The notes under the pieces: generated by a model
Seen by the model: the letters and a program-made list of their open reading frames with translations, nothing else
What the model was told of the DNA's origin: nothing
Database searches by the model: none
Program-made: the position numbers and the translations under genes
Shown here: positions 34,534 to 49,377 of the stretch, one piece after another
How the letters are laid out: each line of letters begins with the position of its first letter
How positions within the stretch are numbered: position 1 is the first letter of the stretch
IMG/VR virus record: IMGVR_UViG_3300008012_000023
Span: 28,982-92,981 of that record
Length of the DNA stretch: 64,000 nt
Strand: one strand, 5' to 3'
Source of the DNA: a virus

Positions 34534-34956
34534 CTACAATTTTTTTGTAGGGGCTTTTTTTATCACATTACCATGAATACGAACTCTTATGTGTCCGTTG
34601 TAATATTCGTCGCTTTCAAGAACTTTCCTGGAAAATTGTTCTCTGGCCTCGATGTAATTGCACTCTCCTCTGGTCCTACAGAAAAATAATATTTCTCTTA
34701 CAATGTTGTTTGTTCCTTGCGACTCTATGTCTTTGAGCAACTCGTCGTTACTGCCGTAATAATCTCTCCAGTCTGATTCTATCTTGAACCTTCTCTTGTT
34801 TTTTCTACCTTTCAACGGCGGTCTTGATCTTTTGAATTTTGCCAGTTTTTTACCAATATATTTCCGTCCATTGTTTTTGTTCAGTATTTCATAGACAAAA
34901 CCTTCACAATCTTTTGGTAATTCTTCCACTGCGTTTCCTTTGTAAATCCAAGACAT
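34534..34956 (-). CDS. GIY-YIG (Seg-like) endonuclease, catalytic domain only (140 aa)
   Basis: GFVYEI...NGRKYIGKK...DWRDYYGS...E...YYN. Start at ATG 34956, 5 nt after TAAATA. Confidence 0.85.
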   Translation of the reverse strand: MSWIYKGNAVEELPKDCEGFVYEILNKNNGRKYIGKKLAKFKRSRPPLKGRKNKRRFKIESDWRDYYGSNDELLKDIESQGTNNIVREILFFCRTRGECNYIEAREQFSRKVLESDEYYNGHIRVRIHGNVIKKAPTKKL

Positions 34957-35059
34957 CGTGGTATTTAAAGCCAAAAAGATTGACTCGGAAAGAAAACTCA
35001 TATAAACAAGTGCGATAGGCACACTATTTTTCAAAACAAAAAAACTTCATTAGGCACAC

Positions 35060-35430
35060 ATAGCATCTCAGAAGTGAGCAGGGAAATGCGGCAGTAATGC
35101 GACAGGTGAATCCCTTGATGCGAAAGGCAAAAACGATGGGGCTCTGAGCAAAAAGCAACCCCAGGTCCGTCCAGGATGATCATGCATAGATTGGACAGGC
35201 TCGCGTTGTATGAATAAGCGAACGGGTACAGCACAACCGCCCGGTTACGACAGCGTTGCATGGTGACTGCGATACTCGCCACACGGGGATCAAGTCAGTT
35301 CGGCTAGAAATAGCCGAATTGTGACTGCTCATCTGCCACAGCAGGCGCAAACGTTTTTTTGTTGCTTTAGCGTAAATTAAGAAATAGGAAACGAGCGTAA
35401 GCGAAGTTTCAGATGGCTGTAAGCCATCTT
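35060..35430 (+). ncRNA. Putative large structured non-coding RNA or structured cis-element, family unknown
   Basis: Intergenic and GC-richer than its flanks. Closing helix TGAGCAG 35075-81 / CTGCTCA 35325-31; at least six internal stems; GAAA/GTAA tetraloops on the + strand. Confidence 0.65.
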
Positions 35431-35459
35431 TGTTTGGCCTTAAGTATTGTGAGAAACAC

Positions 35460-36215
35460 ATGGAATTGATATTCAATCACCTTTTCGGCAAACAGGAACA
35501 CCAGGATCTGGTACTGTGCCATCCCATGGCCCGCGTGTCTCCGGACGAAGAGGAAGAGGCGATCGCCACTGGTTGGCTGGCGCTGGACCATCCCGTGGAT
35601 GGCAAGGAGATGTGGTACCAGAGCCGTAGCACACGTGTGGACCTTTCGGCATACAAACCCAGATTCGCCAGGCACGAATACCAGGGCAAGAGGATAGAGT
35701 TCAAGATAATAGACGCCAACGAGATGGTGACCCTGTTGGGACTGCCCAAGATATACAGGGACTACATGAAAAAGAAAAATTTCACCGCGGACTACAATCC
35801 ATTTGAAAATTTCCACCGCAGGGACCAGTTCATGATCTTCTACGTGGACCGTGCGGACCACATAGTGGGTTTCACCAAACAGAAACGCTATGGCGGGGAC
35901 GACGGATACGGGTTCTCGGAGGGAATGGCCAGCGGATACGAGAGCGTGATACACGCCTGCTCGTTGCCCATCAGCCACATCACCCTGGACATCGAACTGA
36001 ACTGGGCGAGGACCACCGGAGTGGACTACTATATGCTGGGCAGTGGCTACGAGAACAGTTCGGCCTACAAGAGCAAGTACAAGGGTTTTGAGTGGTGGAC
36101 CGGCACACAATGGAGCACCAGCCGTAAACAGTACAACAAGTTGTGCAGGCGAGATTCGCGTGTGCAGACTATTTCCGAGATCTCCAACCTTTCACAGATT
36201 CCAGATAGGTCTTAG
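35460..36215 (+). CDS. Aminoacyl-tRNA-protein transferase-like (ATE1/Bpt C-terminal GNAT fold)
   Basis: AIATGW...WYQSRSTRVDL, IYRDYMKKKNF, ELNWARTTGVDYYMLGSGYENSSAYKSKYKGFEWW match the ATE/Bpt 'YxYLGY...YK..Y' pattern. Start at ATG 35460. Confidence 0.7.
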   Translation: MELIFNHLFGKQEHQDLVLCHPMARVSPDEEEEAIATGWLALDHPVDGKEMWYQSRSTRVDLSAYKPRFARHEYQGKRIEFKIIDANEMVTLLGLPKIYRDYMKKKNFTADYNPFENFHRRDQFMIFYVDRADHIVGFTKQKRYGGDDGYGFSEGMASGYESVIHACSLPISHITLDIELNWARTTGVDYYMLGSGYENSSAYKSKYKGFEWWTGTQWSTSRKQYNKLCRRDSRVQTISEISNLSQIPDRS

Positions 36216-36672
36216 ACCAATTCCGGTAGTAGGGACCTGACTCCAGCATCTTCGAGAACCTGTTGAGTTTGCTCAATCTCTGTGCCAGGAACAGTGTGTA
36301 ATGACCGTTGTTCAATTTCACACCCTTCACCGATTCCTCCACGTCGGGATGATCCTCGAGGACAACAATGTCTTTGTCCATGAAATGGTTGTTCAACTGT
36401 TCGGCCAACTGCTGGGTCTGTGCGGCCGTGAACCAGGCAGGTTCCGCTATCAAGACCAAAACATCTTTCTCGTCAAAATCGCAATCCAAGATGTGTTGAC
36501 ACAGTTGTTCGTAGTTGTCCGTGTCGTTCAACTCGACGAATTTCACTTTTCGATCCACCATGGCCTTCTGGGCAAACGGACAGGGAGGTAGATTGCCAAA
36601 CACCGGATTGGGTTTGGTCACAAAATTATTGATCCAGTGCTGTATCTTCTGTGTTGGTGTCGTCGATGTCAT
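36169..36672 (-). CDS. DUF1415-like protein
   Basis: HWINNFV...NLPPCPFAQKA, DHP, LAQRLSKL...YY.NW. Confidence 0.6.
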   Translation of the reverse strand: MTSTTPTQKIQHWINNFVTKPNPVFGNLPPCPFAQKAMVDRKVKFVELNDTDNYEQLCQHILDCDFDEKDVLVLIAEPAWFTAAQTQQLAEQLNNHFMDKDIVVLEDHPDVEESVKGVKLNNGHYTLFLAQRLSKLNRFSKMLESGPYYRNWSKTYLESVKGWRSRK

Positions 36673-48853: not shown

Positions 48854-48963
48854 TATAAATACCAACAGTTCAAACGTGCTTCGACACAGTGTCGGAGACT
48901 TATGCGGAAACAAACCGCGTACCCAGGAGAACTGGGATTGGACTCCTAAGAAGGAGAAAACAA
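48854..48963 (+). promoter_or_regulatory. Late promoter TATAAATA plus multi-hairpin 5' leader sequestering the SD
   Basis: TATAAATA 48854-61; hairpins at 48879-97, 48901-21, 48922-36 and 48943-56 (CTCCT/AGGAG). Confidence 0.65.
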
Positions 48964-49377
48964 ATGGGAAGACCGATCAAAAAATCAAGAATGTTATCTG
49001 ATTTCAATCCAGGATCAACTGCAACACTGGCTGTAACAACTTACAGAACTGGTGATTCAAACGTGACTGGTACAGGTTCATACATCGTGTCTCAGAGAAG
49101 TTCAAGAAGTTTCAAAATTCACTTGAACGATTCTTCTGAAACAGTAATGAAACTGGTTGCCAAAGCAACACTTACAGATAACGACACATTCAACGTTAAA
49201 GTCATACTTGACGACTCGACTGTGGCATACGTGGAGAAGTTCTACAACGGCACTATTCACTATGTTCAGTCAGACGGTACGACTACAGGAACGGTACCTT
49301 ACACGCTACAAACATCTGAGTCCGCGGACGAAGGTCAAGTTAGTAACAAAGGAAACATTGACATTAGAACTCACTAA
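48964..49377 (+). CDS. Probable virion structural protein (MGRPIKK..., 137 aa)
   Basis: ATG 48964 follows AAGGAG; the ORF-track start at 48889 lies inside the structured leader. Confidence 0.7.
   Translation: MGRPIKKSRMLSDFNPGSTATLAVTTYRTGDSNVTGTGSYIVSQRSSRSFKIHLNDSSETVMKLVAKATLTDNDTFNVKVILDDSTVAYVEKFYNGTIHYVQSDGTTTGTVPYTLQTSESADEGQVSNKGNIDIRTH

What the first reader, a model, noticed from the sequence alone, without database searches (positions are those of the whole stretch)
34980..35430. Unexplained ~370-nt multi-domain structured RNA between a GIY-YIG nuclease and a tRNA-dependent transferase
Seen: the only long non-coding gap in a tightly packed window. A closing helix (CAGA..TGAGCAG 35069-81 / CTGCTCA-TCTG 35325-35) encloses GCA-GTAA-TGC, TGC-GAAA-GGCA, TGGGG/CCCCA, GTCCA/TGGAC, CGCGTTGTA/TACGACAGCG (with inner CGGG/CCCG), TGGTGA/TCGCCA and GTTCGGCTA-GAAA-TAGCCGAAT. 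A possible pseudoknot pairs ATCATGCA (hairpin loop) with TGCATGGT. Two more hairpins follow (GAAACGAGC-GTAA-GCGAAGTTTC; AGATGGC/GCCATCT). GNRA loops and G-U pairs favour a + strand RNA, and TTGACT/TATAAACA lie upstream. I cannot match it to tRNA, tmRNA, SRP, RNase P or intron consensus. Inference: a candidate new large ncRNA or ribozyme. It could partner the minimal GIY-YIG protein (which has no evident DNA-binding domain), or act as a tRNA-related cofactor or leader of the transferase. A structured replication origin is the alternative.
Basis: partly seen in the sequence, partly recalled or inferred. Interest (0 to 1): 0.85.

Follow-up and report, generated by a model that had tools for sequence, protein, structure and literature searches.

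The report
Twin-box structured RNA of aquatic phages
The gene-free gap holds a real gene for a knotted RNA of about 420 bases; its family is common in uncultured aquatic giant T4-like phages, it carries the same short variable word twice, and its job is still unknown.

Summary
Window 35015-35436 (+) is a gene for a roughly 420-nt pseudoknotted non-coding RNA with its own early-type promoter and a 3' hairpin.

- **Structure:** across 60 non-redundant homologues, 82 base pairs are 95% paired and 39 show compensatory changes. Its closing helix and its TGGTGA/TCGCCA stem are not.
- **Distribution:** more than 140 IMG/VR contigs carry the RNA, in at least four subfamilies. It was not found in cultured phages. 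In cell genomes it appears only on a few short, probably mis-binned contigs.
- **Known relative:** no Rfam model matches this copy. However, bona fide Polynucleobacter-1 (RF01718) loci continue downstream into the same architecture. That orphan 2010 motif is therefore the 5' domain of a sister branch.
- **Odd feature:** the word GCCACA occurs twice, 57 nt apart, in matching contexts. The two copies are identical in every homologue while the word itself changes (at least 15 alleles). No complementary partner exists inside the RNA.
- **Neighbours:** a DenA-like GIY-YIG nuclease and an aminoacyl-tRNA-transferase-like protein are frequent neighbours but not obligatory.
- **Best reading:** a trans-acting scaffold that shows two identical reader elements to an outside partner still unknown.

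This scan has flagged the same family many times on other DNA.

The parts
34980..35008 (+). Early-type promoter: -35 TTGACT (34980-34985), 17-nt spacer, -10 TAAACA (35003-35008; TATAAA at 35001-35006 would give a 15-nt spacer). The expected start is near 35015.
   Evidence: AAAAAGATTGAC and the -10 region are conserved across the 60-sequence alignment; relatives have TTGACC-17-TATATA. The strict consensus scanner does not call it, because the last base of the -10 is A, not T.
35016..35059 (+). 5' leader with two TAGGCACAC boxes (35016-35024, 35051-35059) around an A/U-rich spacer of variable length.
   Evidence: The second box plus ATAGCATC is conserved in all subfamilies. The spacer varies in length, and some relatives have a third box.
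35063..35121 (+). 5' domain: outer helix GCATC/GATGC, a 13-nt conserved bulge (with GTGAGC), helix AGGGA/TCCCT, and the inner hairpin GCA-GTAA-TGC.
   Evidence: Helices 1-3 each have 3 pairs with changes on both sides; helices 1 and 2 are 97% and 93% paired.
35137..35163 (+). Hairpin TGGGG/CCCCA enclosing GCTCTG...AG.
   Evidence: 98.7% paired with 3 compensatory pairs. 100% paired with 4 compensatory pairs across subfamilies B-D.
35164..35201 (+). 11-bp hairpin; its loop carries the 5' strand of the pseudoknot (35179-35186, ATCATGCA).
   Evidence: 9 of 11 pairs are compensatory in family A and 11 of 11 across subfamilies.
35204..35255 (+). Three-way junction: CGTT/AGCG encloses the hairpin CGGG/CCCG, which has an invariant 13-nt loop, and a 2-bp tetraloop hairpin. 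The family's invariant 17-mer GGTACAGCACAACCGCC lies at 35225-35241.
   Evidence: The 17-mer is invariant in 60 of 60 sequences and retrieved at least 120 IMG/VR loci. Helices 7-9 are scored; the closing helix covaries across subfamilies.
35257..35264 (+). 3' strand of the pseudoknot (TGCATGGT), which pairs with 35179-35186.
   Evidence: Helix 6 is 98.7% paired, with C-G to U-A at 27 sequences and A-U to G-C at 10-12. The pseudoknot is also present with other sequences in subfamilies B and C and in Polynucleobacter copies.
35263..35291 (+). Twin box 1: GTGACTGC (35263-35270), then a hairpin GATACTC/GGGGATC whose loop holds the word GCCACA (35278-35283) straight after ACTC.
   Evidence: Word columns 384-386 are identical to columns 444-446 in all 60 sequences and in all 89 family-A loci. 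The local fold puts the word in a hairpin loop in 54 of 68 distinct sequences.
35293..35326 (+). Long GAAA-capped helix (AGTCAGTTCGGCTA / TAGCCGAATTGTGACT) that separates the two boxes.
   Evidence: Helix 12 is 96.9% paired with 4 compensatory pairs.
35322..35343 (+). Twin box 2: GTGACTGC (35322-35329), prefix ATCT (35331-35334), word GCCACA (35335-35340), 57 nt after the first copy.
   Evidence: The local hairpin (TCT/AGG) is weak and is predicted in only 45 of 68 sequences.
35344..35387 (+). Variable A/U-rich linker. Many relatives have an extra small hairpin here; this copy does not.
   Evidence: Alignment columns 455-545 of A1 are poorly conserved and rich in gaps.
35388..35410 (+). Hairpin GAAAC/GTTTC with the conserved inner motif GAGCGTAAGCGAA.
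   Evidence: Helices 13 and 14, with 3 compensatory pairs. The same motif, GAGCGATAAGCGAA, occurs in Polynucleobacter copies.
35411..35436 (+). Terminal hairpin AGATGGC-TGTAA-GCCATCT followed by TTTGTTT: terminator-like, and the probable 3' end.
   Evidence: The terminator scan calls it. Helix 15 is 98.8% paired with 2 compensatory pairs. In many relatives the tail is not U-rich.
34534..34956 (-). Neighbour, not shown to be a partner: a 140-aa GIY-YIG nuclease with a catalytic domain only, in the position of T4 denA in cultured relatives.
   Evidence: Pfam PF19835 E 8e-35; phrog_447 E 1e-38; 40% identical to P-SSM2 PSSM2_218. Next to the RNA in most loci, in two orientations.
35460..36215 (+). 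Neighbour: a 251-aa protein with the fold of aminoacyl-tRNA-dependent transferases.
   Evidence: AF2 model with pLDDT 81. Foldseek matches: human ATE1 at E 2.7e-6, then MprF C-domain, yeast ATE1, FemX and L/F-transferase. No Pfam hit and no cultured-phage homologue.
36169..36672 (-). Neighbour: a 167-aa DUF1415/DUF6875-like protein, convergent with the transferase-like gene and overlapping it by 47 nt. It always travels with that gene.
   Evidence: The fold is not decisively assigned: AglA at Z 8.0, Alba/IF3-C-like at Z 4-5.

Best explanation
**Shown.**
- This is an independent gene for a trans-acting, pseudoknotted, non-coding RNA of about 420 nt.
- It belongs to a large RNA superfamily carried by phages and other mobile elements.
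- The orphan Polynucleobacter-1 motif (RF01718) is the 5' domain of a sister branch.
- A conserved core holds two near-duplicate modules, GUGACUGC...ACUC-[word] and GUGACUGC...AUCU-[word]. The core comprises the 5' domain, a hairpin whose loop forms a pseudoknot across a three-way junction, and an invariant 13-nt loop.
- The two modules sit about 57 nt apart, on either side of a GNRA-capped helix.
- The two words (GCCACA here) are always identical to each other. Across the family they differ from phage to phage.

**Inferred.**
- The core is a rigid scaffold that presents two copies of one short recognition element.
- The RNA would then engage two copies of one outside partner, a dimer, or a partner with a repeated site.
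- That partner's specificity drifts together with the word.
- The partner is not identified. Branches of the family lack every phage neighbour gene, so a host-supplied or universal molecule (tRNA or another RNA, or a host protein) is somewhat more likely than the adjacent nuclease or transferase.
- Transcription from a sigma-70-type promoter suggests that the RNA acts early in infection.
For: **Real RNA.** 95.1% of cells are paired, 39 pairs are compensatory, and 0 of 500 shuffles reach this. The central domain holds up across subfamilies that were not used to build the model: 24 of 28 pairs are compensatory, 90.4% paired against 63.5% shuffled. Dozens of G-U and U-G pairs would be A-C on the other strand, which fixes the + strand. 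The region is not coding.

**Independent gene.** The upstream TTGAC/-10 is conserved and 3' hairpins follow. The downstream gene differs between loci. In subfamily B the transferase gene is upstream and divergent.

**Twin words.**
- The two word column sets are identical in 60 of 60 sequences, so their mutual information equals the full entropy.
- They are identical in 89 of 89 family-A loci, with five triplet alleles.
- The identity often extends 2-4 nt further.
- Other branches have other word pairs: ACAUGAUG/ACGUGAUG, AGAUGAU/AGAUGAG/GGAUGAU/GGAUGAG/AAGAGA/AGAUAGA, GGUAAU/GGGAAAU, and AGCGAAA/GGCGAAA.
- That makes at least 15 alleles, each needing a concerted change in both copies.
- The word changes at least 6 times on the RNA tree.
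- No third column or segment in the RNA covaries with the word or complements it.
- Copy 1 sits in a hairpin loop in 79% of local folds.

**Partner not necessarily a neighbour.** D-type loci, the 93%-complete G001 and the Polynucleobacter copies lack the transferase cassette. The Polynucleobacter copies also lack the nuclease.
Against: - No partner has been found. Neither the word nor its complement is enriched in the flanking phage DNA.
- No residue of the nuclease, the transferase-like protein or the DUF protein tracks the word class. That test was underpowered.
- Recombination moves the whole 3' module, so both words travel together. L039 and L057 have an identical 5' two-thirds and a swapped 3' part. 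Tree-based counts of concerted changes are therefore inflated.
- Box 2 has no well-supported hairpin.
- No expression data were available, so the transcript ends are inferred.
- Identity of two segments could also come from a DNA-level constraint or from a processing or copying mechanism.
Confidence: 0.5

Rival explanations
1. The RNA is a cofactor for the neighbouring aminoacyl-tRNA-transferase-like enzyme. On this view the variable triplet at the start of each word acts like a codon that pairs with a tRNA anticodon, as a T-box specifier does. Two charged tRNAs would then be brought to the enzyme.
For: - The 251-aa neighbour has the fold of ATE1, MprF, FemX and L/F-transferase, all of which use aminoacyl-tRNA.
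- The transferase/DUF cassette sits next to the RNA in three different arrangements, in subfamilies A, B and C.
- Cultured phages show neither the RNA by blastn nor the enzyme by tblastn.
- The family-A triplets are ACC, ACU, GCC, AGC and AGU, each followed by A. These are sense codons for Thr, Ala and Ser, and they include two synonymous C/U pairs.
- Several of these phages carry 27-33 tRNA genes.
Against: - D-type loci, G001 (93% complete) and the Polynucleobacter copies have the RNA but no detectable transferase.
- In other subfamilies the variation lies outside the first triplet, as in AGAUGAU versus AGAUGAG.
- G002 has the word AGAUGAG, but its phage tRNAs are only Thr(UGU), Trp and Arg(ACG).
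- No T-box or tRNA-like model matches.
- No enzyme residue tracks the word.
Confidence: 0.12
2. The RNA is the partner of the adjacent minimal GIY-YIG nuclease. It could act as an inhibitor that occupies two active sites. Alternatively it could be a specificity factor whose two identical words read a two-fold DNA site.
For: - Of 130 loci with enough upstream DNA, 113 hold a homologue of the nuclease, mostly adjacent to the RNA. It is divergent in A/B and in tandem upstream in C/D.
- Weinberg et al. 2010 saw the same linkage for Polynucleobacter-1: the upstream genes were homologous to PSSM2_218. PSSM2_218 is 40% identical to this nuclease.
- The protein is a catalytic domain only.
Against: - Homologues occur in 481 cultured-phage records. 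In those I inspected they sit beside nrdB, at the T4 denA position, with no RNA next to them. The covariance model finds no copy in three whole genomes.
- In both A and D the pair lies at the same place, between gp46 and a baseplate gene, so inherited synteny explains the adjacency.
- Free-standing GIY-YIG genes typically settle beside conserved RNA genes; this rests on my background knowledge of T4 segB.
- The Polynucleobacter copies have no nuclease within 1.5 kb.
- Words of 6-9 nt are short for a guide.
- No residue tracks the word.
Confidence: 0.1
3. The RNA works alone, either as a ribozyme or as a self-assembling RNA-only particle like ROOL, GOLLD or OLE. The twin boxes would be pseudo-symmetric structural modules or subunit contacts.
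For: - The size, ornate fold, pseudoknot, GNRA loops and invariant 13-nt loop fit such RNAs.
- It is carried by phages, as ROOL and GOLLD are (10.1101/2024.12.08.627333, listed).
- It persists without any constant protein neighbour.
Against: - No Rfam ribozyme or large-RNA model matches.
- The words are not self-complementary, and no complementary segment covaries with them. Loop-loop contacts between subunits are therefore not visible.
- Purely structural modules need not stay identical in sequence.
Confidence: 0.1
4. The constraint on the twin boxes acts on DNA. The two 25-bp direct repeats would be iterons of a replication origin, operator sites, or target sites of the neighbouring homing-type nuclease. 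The transcript could also serve as an origin R-loop primer.
For: - Two imperfect direct repeats at a fixed spacing of 52-60 bp.
- The locus lies at the junction of divergent transcription units, between the recombination genes and the baseplate genes.
- Repeats bound by one protein stay identical. T4 oriF and oriG use promoter-driven R-loops; this is my background knowledge.
Against: - Most of the element is under RNA-level selection, with compensatory pairs and strand-specific G-U pairs. A DNA role could only be an additional one.
- No initiator-like gene is linked.
- The window's composition and skew were not examined.
Confidence: 0.08
5. The RNA is a cis-acting leader, like a riboswitch or T-box, that controls the downstream transferase-like gene.
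For: - In most family-A loci the gene starts 25-35 nt after the last hairpin, with no promoter of its own in between. A conserved TTAAGTA precedes the ATG.
Against: - In L003, L004 and L006 other genes follow the RNA.
- In subfamily B the gene is upstream on the other strand, and in C it is convergent.
- D-type and Polynucleobacter copies have unrelated downstream genes.
- The terminal hairpin looks like a terminator here.
Confidence: 0.05

Closest known systems
Polynucleobacter-1 RNA motif (Rfam RF01718; Weinberg et al. 2010, Genome Biol 11:R31, PMC2864571)
   Same: - Bona fide RF01718 loci in small Burkholderiales genomes (67-82 bits) continue downstream into the same collinear architecture.
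- That architecture includes a hairpin-loop pseudoknot (CCACUUAU/AUAAGUGG) and a core loop ending in AACCGCC.
- It also includes twin boxes AACUC-word and AAUCU-word 57-59 nt apart. The two words covary together: AGCGAAA in one genome, GGCGAAA in two others.
- A GAGCG-NNA-GCGAA hairpin and a terminal hairpin follow.
- The paper's supplement says most examples lie downstream of genes like P-SSM2 PSSM2_218. That gene is a homologue of this window's nuclease.
- The function is unknown in both.
   Different: - The Rfam model covers only the 141-nt 5' domain. It does not match this copy, 14 relatives, or 5 whole phage records.
- My central-domain model and my HMM do not reach the Polynucleobacter copies either. 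The kinship therefore rests on collinear motifs, not on a significant score.
- The 2010 description includes neither the core, nor the pseudoknot, nor the twin boxes.
- Those copies sit in a bacterial chromosome next to an integrase fragment, not in a T4-like phage.
GOLLD (RF01998) and ROOL (RF03087) large ornate phage-associated RNAs
   Same: These are also large, multi-domain, pseudoknotted RNAs with no known function, carried by phages and prophages and expressed as independent genes.
   Different: - There is no sequence or model match.
- This RNA is smaller.
- Those RNAs self-assemble through complementary contacts. Here the odd feature is two identical, non-self-complementary words.
T-box leader RNAs (RF00230)
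   Same: - A structured RNA linked to a tRNA-using enzyme.
- A short variable triplet followed by a purine, which would resemble a specifier codon if the tRNA reading is right.
   Different: - No model match.
- This RNA is not a leader of a constant gene.
- It has two identical words rather than one specifier plus a UGGN bulge.
- It is found in phages of probably Gram-negative hosts.
HEARO / omega-RNA of IscB, and other nuclease-associated guide RNAs
   Same: A large structured RNA habitually next to a small nuclease gene, with a short variable element.
   Different: - The nuclease here is GIY-YIG, and it exists widely without the RNA.
- The variable element is 6-9 nt, internal and duplicated, not a terminal guide of 16-20 nt.
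- No model match.
E. coli thrS operator and CsrB/RsmZ-type RNAs (two or more identical loops binding a protein dimer)
   Same: The logic of presenting the same short loop sequence more than once, so that a symmetric partner binds bivalently. This comparison rests on my background knowledge.
   Different: - No homology.
- Those repeated loops are constant across species. Here the word changes from phage to phage.

Membership tests
Twin-box phage RNA superfamily (defined here and in earlier notes of this scan; unpublished) | Invariant core loop inside NGGG/CCCN' (17-mer GGTACAGCACAACCGCC) | tested here: met
   Present at 35225-35241. It is invariant in 60 of 60 homologues and retrieved at least 120 IMG/VR loci.
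Twin-box phage RNA superfamily (defined here and in earlier notes of this scan; unpublished) | Pseudoknot between the loop of the long hairpin and the strand 3' of the three-way junction | tested here: met
   35179-35186 pairs with 35257-35264. 98.7% paired, with 4 compensatory pairs.
Twin-box phage RNA superfamily (defined here and in earlier notes of this scan; unpublished) | Two identical words after ACUC and AUCU, 52-60 nt apart, each preceded by GUGACUG | tested here: met
   GCCACA at 35278-35283 and 35335-35340, 57 nt apart.
Polynucleobacter-1 RNA (RF01718) | Score at or above the Rfam gathering threshold (37 bits) | tested here: not met
   No RF01718 hit at E up to 10 on 34900-35500. 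None at E up to 1 in 14 relatives or in 5 whole records including this contig.
Polynucleobacter-1 RNA (RF01718) | Neighbour gene of the PSSM2_218 family (supplement of PMC2864571) | tested here: met
   The window's GIY-YIG protein is 40% identical to PSSM2_218, E 1e-23.
Polynucleobacter-1 RNA (RF01718) | Shared downstream architecture with bona fide RF01718 loci | tested here: inconclusive
   The collinear motifs are the same by inspection: pseudoknot, AACCGCC loop, twin boxes with the same prefixes and spacing, and the GAGCG..GCGAA hairpin. However, my covariance model scores only E 0.35-0.5 there and nhmmer finds nothing.
Group I intron (RF00028) | Model match, interruption of a host gene, and the P3-P7 pseudoknot order | tested here: not met
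   No hit at E up to 10. A promoter lies upstream and a hairpin downstream, with no split gene. The pseudoknot topology differs.
RNase P RNA / tmRNA / tRNA | Model match (Rfam, ARAGORN) | tested here: not met
   No Rfam hit. ARAGORN finds no tRNA or tmRNA in the window.
T-box leader (RF00230) | Model match and a constant downstream aminoacyl-tRNA-related gene | tested here: not met
   No hit. The downstream gene varies, and the transferase lies on the other side or is absent in other subfamilies.
GOLLD / ROOL / HEARO / OLE / raiA large RNAs | Model match | tested here: not met
   No Rfam match at gathering threshold in the window or in 11 distant relatives. None at E up to 1 in 14 relatives.
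Aminoacyl-tRNA-dependent transferases (ATE1/Bpt, L/F-transferase, FemX, MprF C-domain): neighbour protein 35460-36215 | Tandem GNAT-like fold of the superfamily | tested here: met
   Foldseek finds 49 PDB matches at E up to 0.001. The top ranks are almost all enzymes of this superfamily, and the best is human ATE1 at E 2.7e-6. The model has pLDDT 81.
Aminoacyl-tRNA-dependent transferases (ATE1/Bpt, L/F-transferase, FemX, MprF C-domain): neighbour protein 35460-36215 | Sequence-profile membership and catalytic residues | tested here: inconclusive
   No Pfam hit at E up to 0.01. NCBIfam arginyltransferase reaches only E 0.07. A PDB sequence profile finds nothing. Catalytic residues were not examined.

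The most novel reading that the evidence does not exclude
The twin words may be two copies of a short, reprogrammable reader that base-pairs with an outside nucleic acid. One candidate is two tRNA anticodons delivered to the linked aminoacyl-tRNA-transferase-like enzyme. Another is a two-fold site in DNA or RNA cut by the linked GIY-YIG nuclease. Either way the family would be a new class of bivalent RNA-guided phage device, one that retargets by changing both words together.
Probability: 0.12. Interest if true: 0.9.

Novelty: new variant of a known kind. Interest (0 to 1): 0.66.

Why it matters
Large, ornate RNAs of unknown function are rare. Past examples such as RNase P, tmRNA, HEARO/omega-RNA and ROOL/GOLLD each opened a new piece of biology.

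This family is abundant in uncultured aquatic giant T4-like phages and escapes current RNA catalogues. It shows a signature that ordinary structure searches do not look for: two segments kept identical rather than complementary while their sequence drifts.

Showing that the 2010 orphan motif Polynucleobacter-1 is only the 5' end of such an RNA has two practical uses. It gives that motif a full-length context, and it offers a cultivable bacterial system (Polynucleobacter) in which to study the family.

If the words turn out to read a nucleic-acid partner, this would be a new RNA-guided mechanism in phages.

Tried and rejected
**Single-sequence and catalogue searches**
- Single-sequence folding is not informative (z about -1 on both strands).
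- Rfam at the gathering threshold and at E up to 10 gives nothing in the gap.
- ARAGORN gives nothing.
- blastn of the gap against 50,697 cultured-phage records finds no match.

**Coding reading:** rejected.

**tRNA link**
- This contig has no tRNA gene.
- Related giant contigs have 27-33 tRNAs, which is too many to be informative.
- The one complete genome with few tRNAs does not match its own word.

**Search for the partner**
- Neither the word nor its complement is enriched in flanking DNA.
- No cis complement exists inside the RNA. The regular expression was loose and picked up some spurious pairs.
- No residue of the three neighbour proteins tracks the word (underpowered).

**Cellular origin:** the 17-mer hits 87 cellular contigs, about the number expected by chance (roughly 69). 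Only 4 are real, all on short MAG contigs.

**Models against Polynucleobacter copies:** the central-domain covariance model is not significant and nhmmer finds nothing.

**Neighbour proteins**
- The 224-aa gene after the Polynucleobacter RNA is not related to the transferase.
- The DUF1415-like fold gets no decisive match.

**Literature:** I found no paper describing this RNA beyond the 2010 motif. A 2023 catalogue of short phage RNA candidates (PMC10690425) may contain fragments of it; I could not check.

- The first translation of the nuclease was out of frame; redone.
- Two structure strings were unbalanced and were corrected.
Full report
**What is in the window.** The gap 34957-35459 lies between two genes.
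- On the minus strand is a 140-aa GIY-YIG gene (34534-34956; Pfam SegE_GIY-YIG, E 8e-35).
- On the plus strand is a 251-aa gene (35460-36215).

The window is part of a 92,981-base IMG/VR contig of a T4-like phage, estimated 26% complete. Rfam finds nothing in the gap, either at the gathering threshold or at E up to 10. ARAGORN finds no tRNA or tmRNA. The minimum-free-energy fold of the single sequence is no better than shuffles (z -1.06 on +, -1.33 on -). By itself the sequence proves nothing.

**Comparative evidence.** Seven IMG/VR loci were fetched through the 251-aa protein. They carry the gap DNA at 76-82% identity, although the protein is only 53-59% identical. A variant pattern added 22 more. 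nhmmer matched 115 loci, 68 of them full-length and 60 non-redundant, at 50-76% identity to this copy.

I curated a structure of 82 pairs in 15 helices on the 60-sequence alignment A1.
- It is 95.1% paired, against 86.4% for column shuffles and about 36% when partners are slid.
- 39 pairs change on both sides, in 451 cells, and 0 of 500 shuffles reach this.
- Many positions are G-U or U-G in most sequences, which fixes the + strand.
- Indels are mostly not multiples of three, and variable columns show no codon periodicity.

A covariance model of the central domain (R1) was built from family A only. It matched every locus of the divergent subfamilies B, C and D over its full length. On that alignment, 24 of 28 pairs are compensatory.

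- The closing helix GTGAGCAG/CTGCTCAT is not supported. Its 5' strand is a conserved bulge inside the covarying helices GCATC/GATGC and AGGGA/TCCCT. It breaks without compensation in 13 of 60 sequences.
- TGGTGA/TCGCCA is wrong because TGGTG belongs to the pseudoknot.
- The long CGCGTTGTA/TACGACAGCG stem is really CGTT/AGCG closing a three-way junction. That junction holds the CGGG/CCCG hairpin and a 2-bp tetraloop hairpin.
- The transcript probably runs from about 35015, downstream of TTGACT-17-TAAACA, to the hairpin 35411-35429 with its T tract.

**The twin boxes.** After the pseudoknot the RNA contains two near-duplicate modules.
- Box 1 is GTGACTGC (35263) followed by ACTC-GCCACA (word at 35278-35283).
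- Box 2 is GTGACTGC (35322) followed by ATCT-GCCACA (word at 35335-35340).
- They lie 57 nt apart, on either side of the GAAA-capped helix.

- The two word column sets are identical in all 60 aligned sequences and in all 89 family-A loci. The alleles are ACC 50, GCC 20, AGC 11, AGU 6 and ACU 2, each followed by ACA.
- The identity often extends further, as in ACCACAGGG, ACCACAGAG, GCCACAGT and GCCACAAGA.
- Other branches have quite different words, again always in matching pairs.
- No other column has comparable mutual information, and no complementary segment recurs inside the RNA.
- The word changes at least six times on a tree built without the word columns.

There is a caveat to that tree count. 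Close relatives such as L039 and L057 share an identical 5' two-thirds and differ throughout the 3' module. Recombination therefore moves both words as a block. The robust statement is that there are at least 15 distinct alleles, each with both copies alike.

Copy 1 lies in the loop of a hairpin, (GA)ACUC/GRG(UUC), in 54 of 68 local folds. The context of copy 2 is weaker.

**Neighbours.**

*The nuclease.* The GIY-YIG gene has a homologue in 113 of 130 loci with enough upstream DNA, mostly adjacent to the RNA. It is divergent in A and B and in tandem upstream in C and D. It is not sporadic, at 55-68% identity. Yet homologues are present in 481 cultured-phage records. In those I inspected they sit by nrdB, the position of denA in T4, with no long gap beside them. 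R1 finds no RNA in the complete genomes of Melnitz, S-SRM01 or ACG-2014f. In both family A (this window) and family D (L120) the pair lies between gp46 and a baseplate gene, so inherited synteny can explain the adjacency.

*The transferase-like protein.* The 251-aa protein has no Pfam hit. Its AlphaFold model (pLDDT 81) matches human and yeast ATE1, the MprF C-domain, FemX and L/F-transferase, all of which depend on aminoacyl-tRNA. With its DUF1415-like companion it flanks the RNA in three arrangements, in A, B and C. It has no homologue in cultured phages. It is missing near D-type RNAs, from a 93%-complete genome, and from the Polynucleobacter copies.

*Word tracking.* No residue of any of the three proteins tracks the word class, although that test had little power.

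**Relation to what is known.** Earlier notes of this scan named Polynucleobacter-1 (RF01718) as a relative.
- The Rfam model does not hit this copy, 14 relatives, or five whole records.
- The supplement of Weinberg et al. 2010 says the motif's 3' half is often not detected. It also says most examples follow genes like P-SSM2 PSSM2_218. I showed that PSSM2_218 is a homologue of this window's nuclease (40% identity, E 1e-23).
- I then found bona fide RF01718 matches (67-82 bits) in three small Burkholderiales genomes and read on downstream.
- The same order of parts appears there. These are a loop-to-3' pseudoknot, a core loop ending AACCGCC, twin boxes AACUC-AGCGAAA and AAUCU-AGCGAAA 59 nt apart, the GAGCGAUAAGCGAA hairpin and a terminal hairpin. 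In two other genomes both words read GGCGAAA, at 57 nt.
- Neither R1 nor nhmmer reaches these copies. The kinship is therefore architectural, not statistical.
- The copy I inspected (L274) sits beside an integrase fragment, and none of the three phage neighbour genes lies within 1.5 kb of the copies.

**How it most likely works.** What is shown is a conserved, pseudoknotted scaffold, expressed from its own promoter, that carries two copies of one short, fast-changing word in equivalent settings. The simplest reading is bivalent recognition of an outside partner whose specificity drifts with the word. The partner could be two molecules, a dimer, or a repeated site. I put this at about 0.5. The partner is unknown. 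Because whole branches lack each phage neighbour, I lean slightly to a host-supplied or universal partner.

The rival readings, with their probabilities, are set out in the rival explanations. They are a tRNA link (0.12), a nuclease link (0.10), an RNA-only machine (0.10), a DNA-level role for the repeats (0.08) and a cis leader (0.05).

**Verdict.** The element is a new, uncatalogued branch of an RNA superfamily. Only a fragment of that superfamily, the 5' domain of one sister branch, is in the literature, as an orphan motif. This scan has met the same family many times on other DNA: 66 notes matched my word search. I scored it on what I tested here.

Noticed in passing
window 48880-48966 (+): A full-length match to the Rfam family freshwater-2 RNA (RF02980; 76.2 bits against a gathering score of 49.9), ending at an ATG.
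   Followed up: partly
window 35460-36215 (+) and 36169-36672 (-): A phage-specific protein family (341 metagenomic clusters, no Pfam) with the fold of aminoacyl-tRNA-dependent transferases. It is always paired with a convergent DUF1415-like gene that overlaps it. No homologue of the transferase-like protein was found in 50,697 cultured-phage records.
   Followed up: partly
window 34534-34956 (-); P-SSM2 PSSM2_218 (L273:26712-27149): This GIY-YIG protein family (phrog_447) is widely annotated as 'NAD synthetase' in cyanophage records, which looks like a propagated mis-annotation. In cultured relatives it sits at the T4 denA position, next to nrdB.
   Followed up: partly
window 34962-34972 (-): The conserved TATTTAAAG just upstream of the nuclease start reads CTTTAAATA on the minus strand, like a T4 late promoter. 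The nuclease may therefore be a late gene, while the RNA has an early-type promoter.
   Followed up: no
window 35016-35024 and 35051-35059 (+): Two TAGGCACAC boxes in the RNA leader; relatives have two or three AGGCA(A/C)AC boxes. Their role (start-site context or processing site) is unknown.
   Followed up: no
L039 versus L057 (alignment A1, columns 131-600): Two RNAs are almost identical over the 5' two-thirds and diverge throughout the 3' module. This is a recombination mosaic inside the RNA gene, with a breakpoint at the end of the pseudoknot.
   Followed up: partly
L274 (G056:C4:71077-74217), minus strand 1180-1700: A full-length twin-box RNA in a small Burkholderiales chromosome, beside an integrase fragment and a DUF6641 gene. 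This looks like an integrated element and offers a possible cultivable system for studying the family.
   Followed up: partly
G001, G004, G005 (contigs behind L040, L010, L085): Related giant phage contigs carry 27-33 tRNA genes each. The complete 328-kb genome G002 has only three clear tRNA genes (Thr, Trp, Arg).
   Followed up: partly
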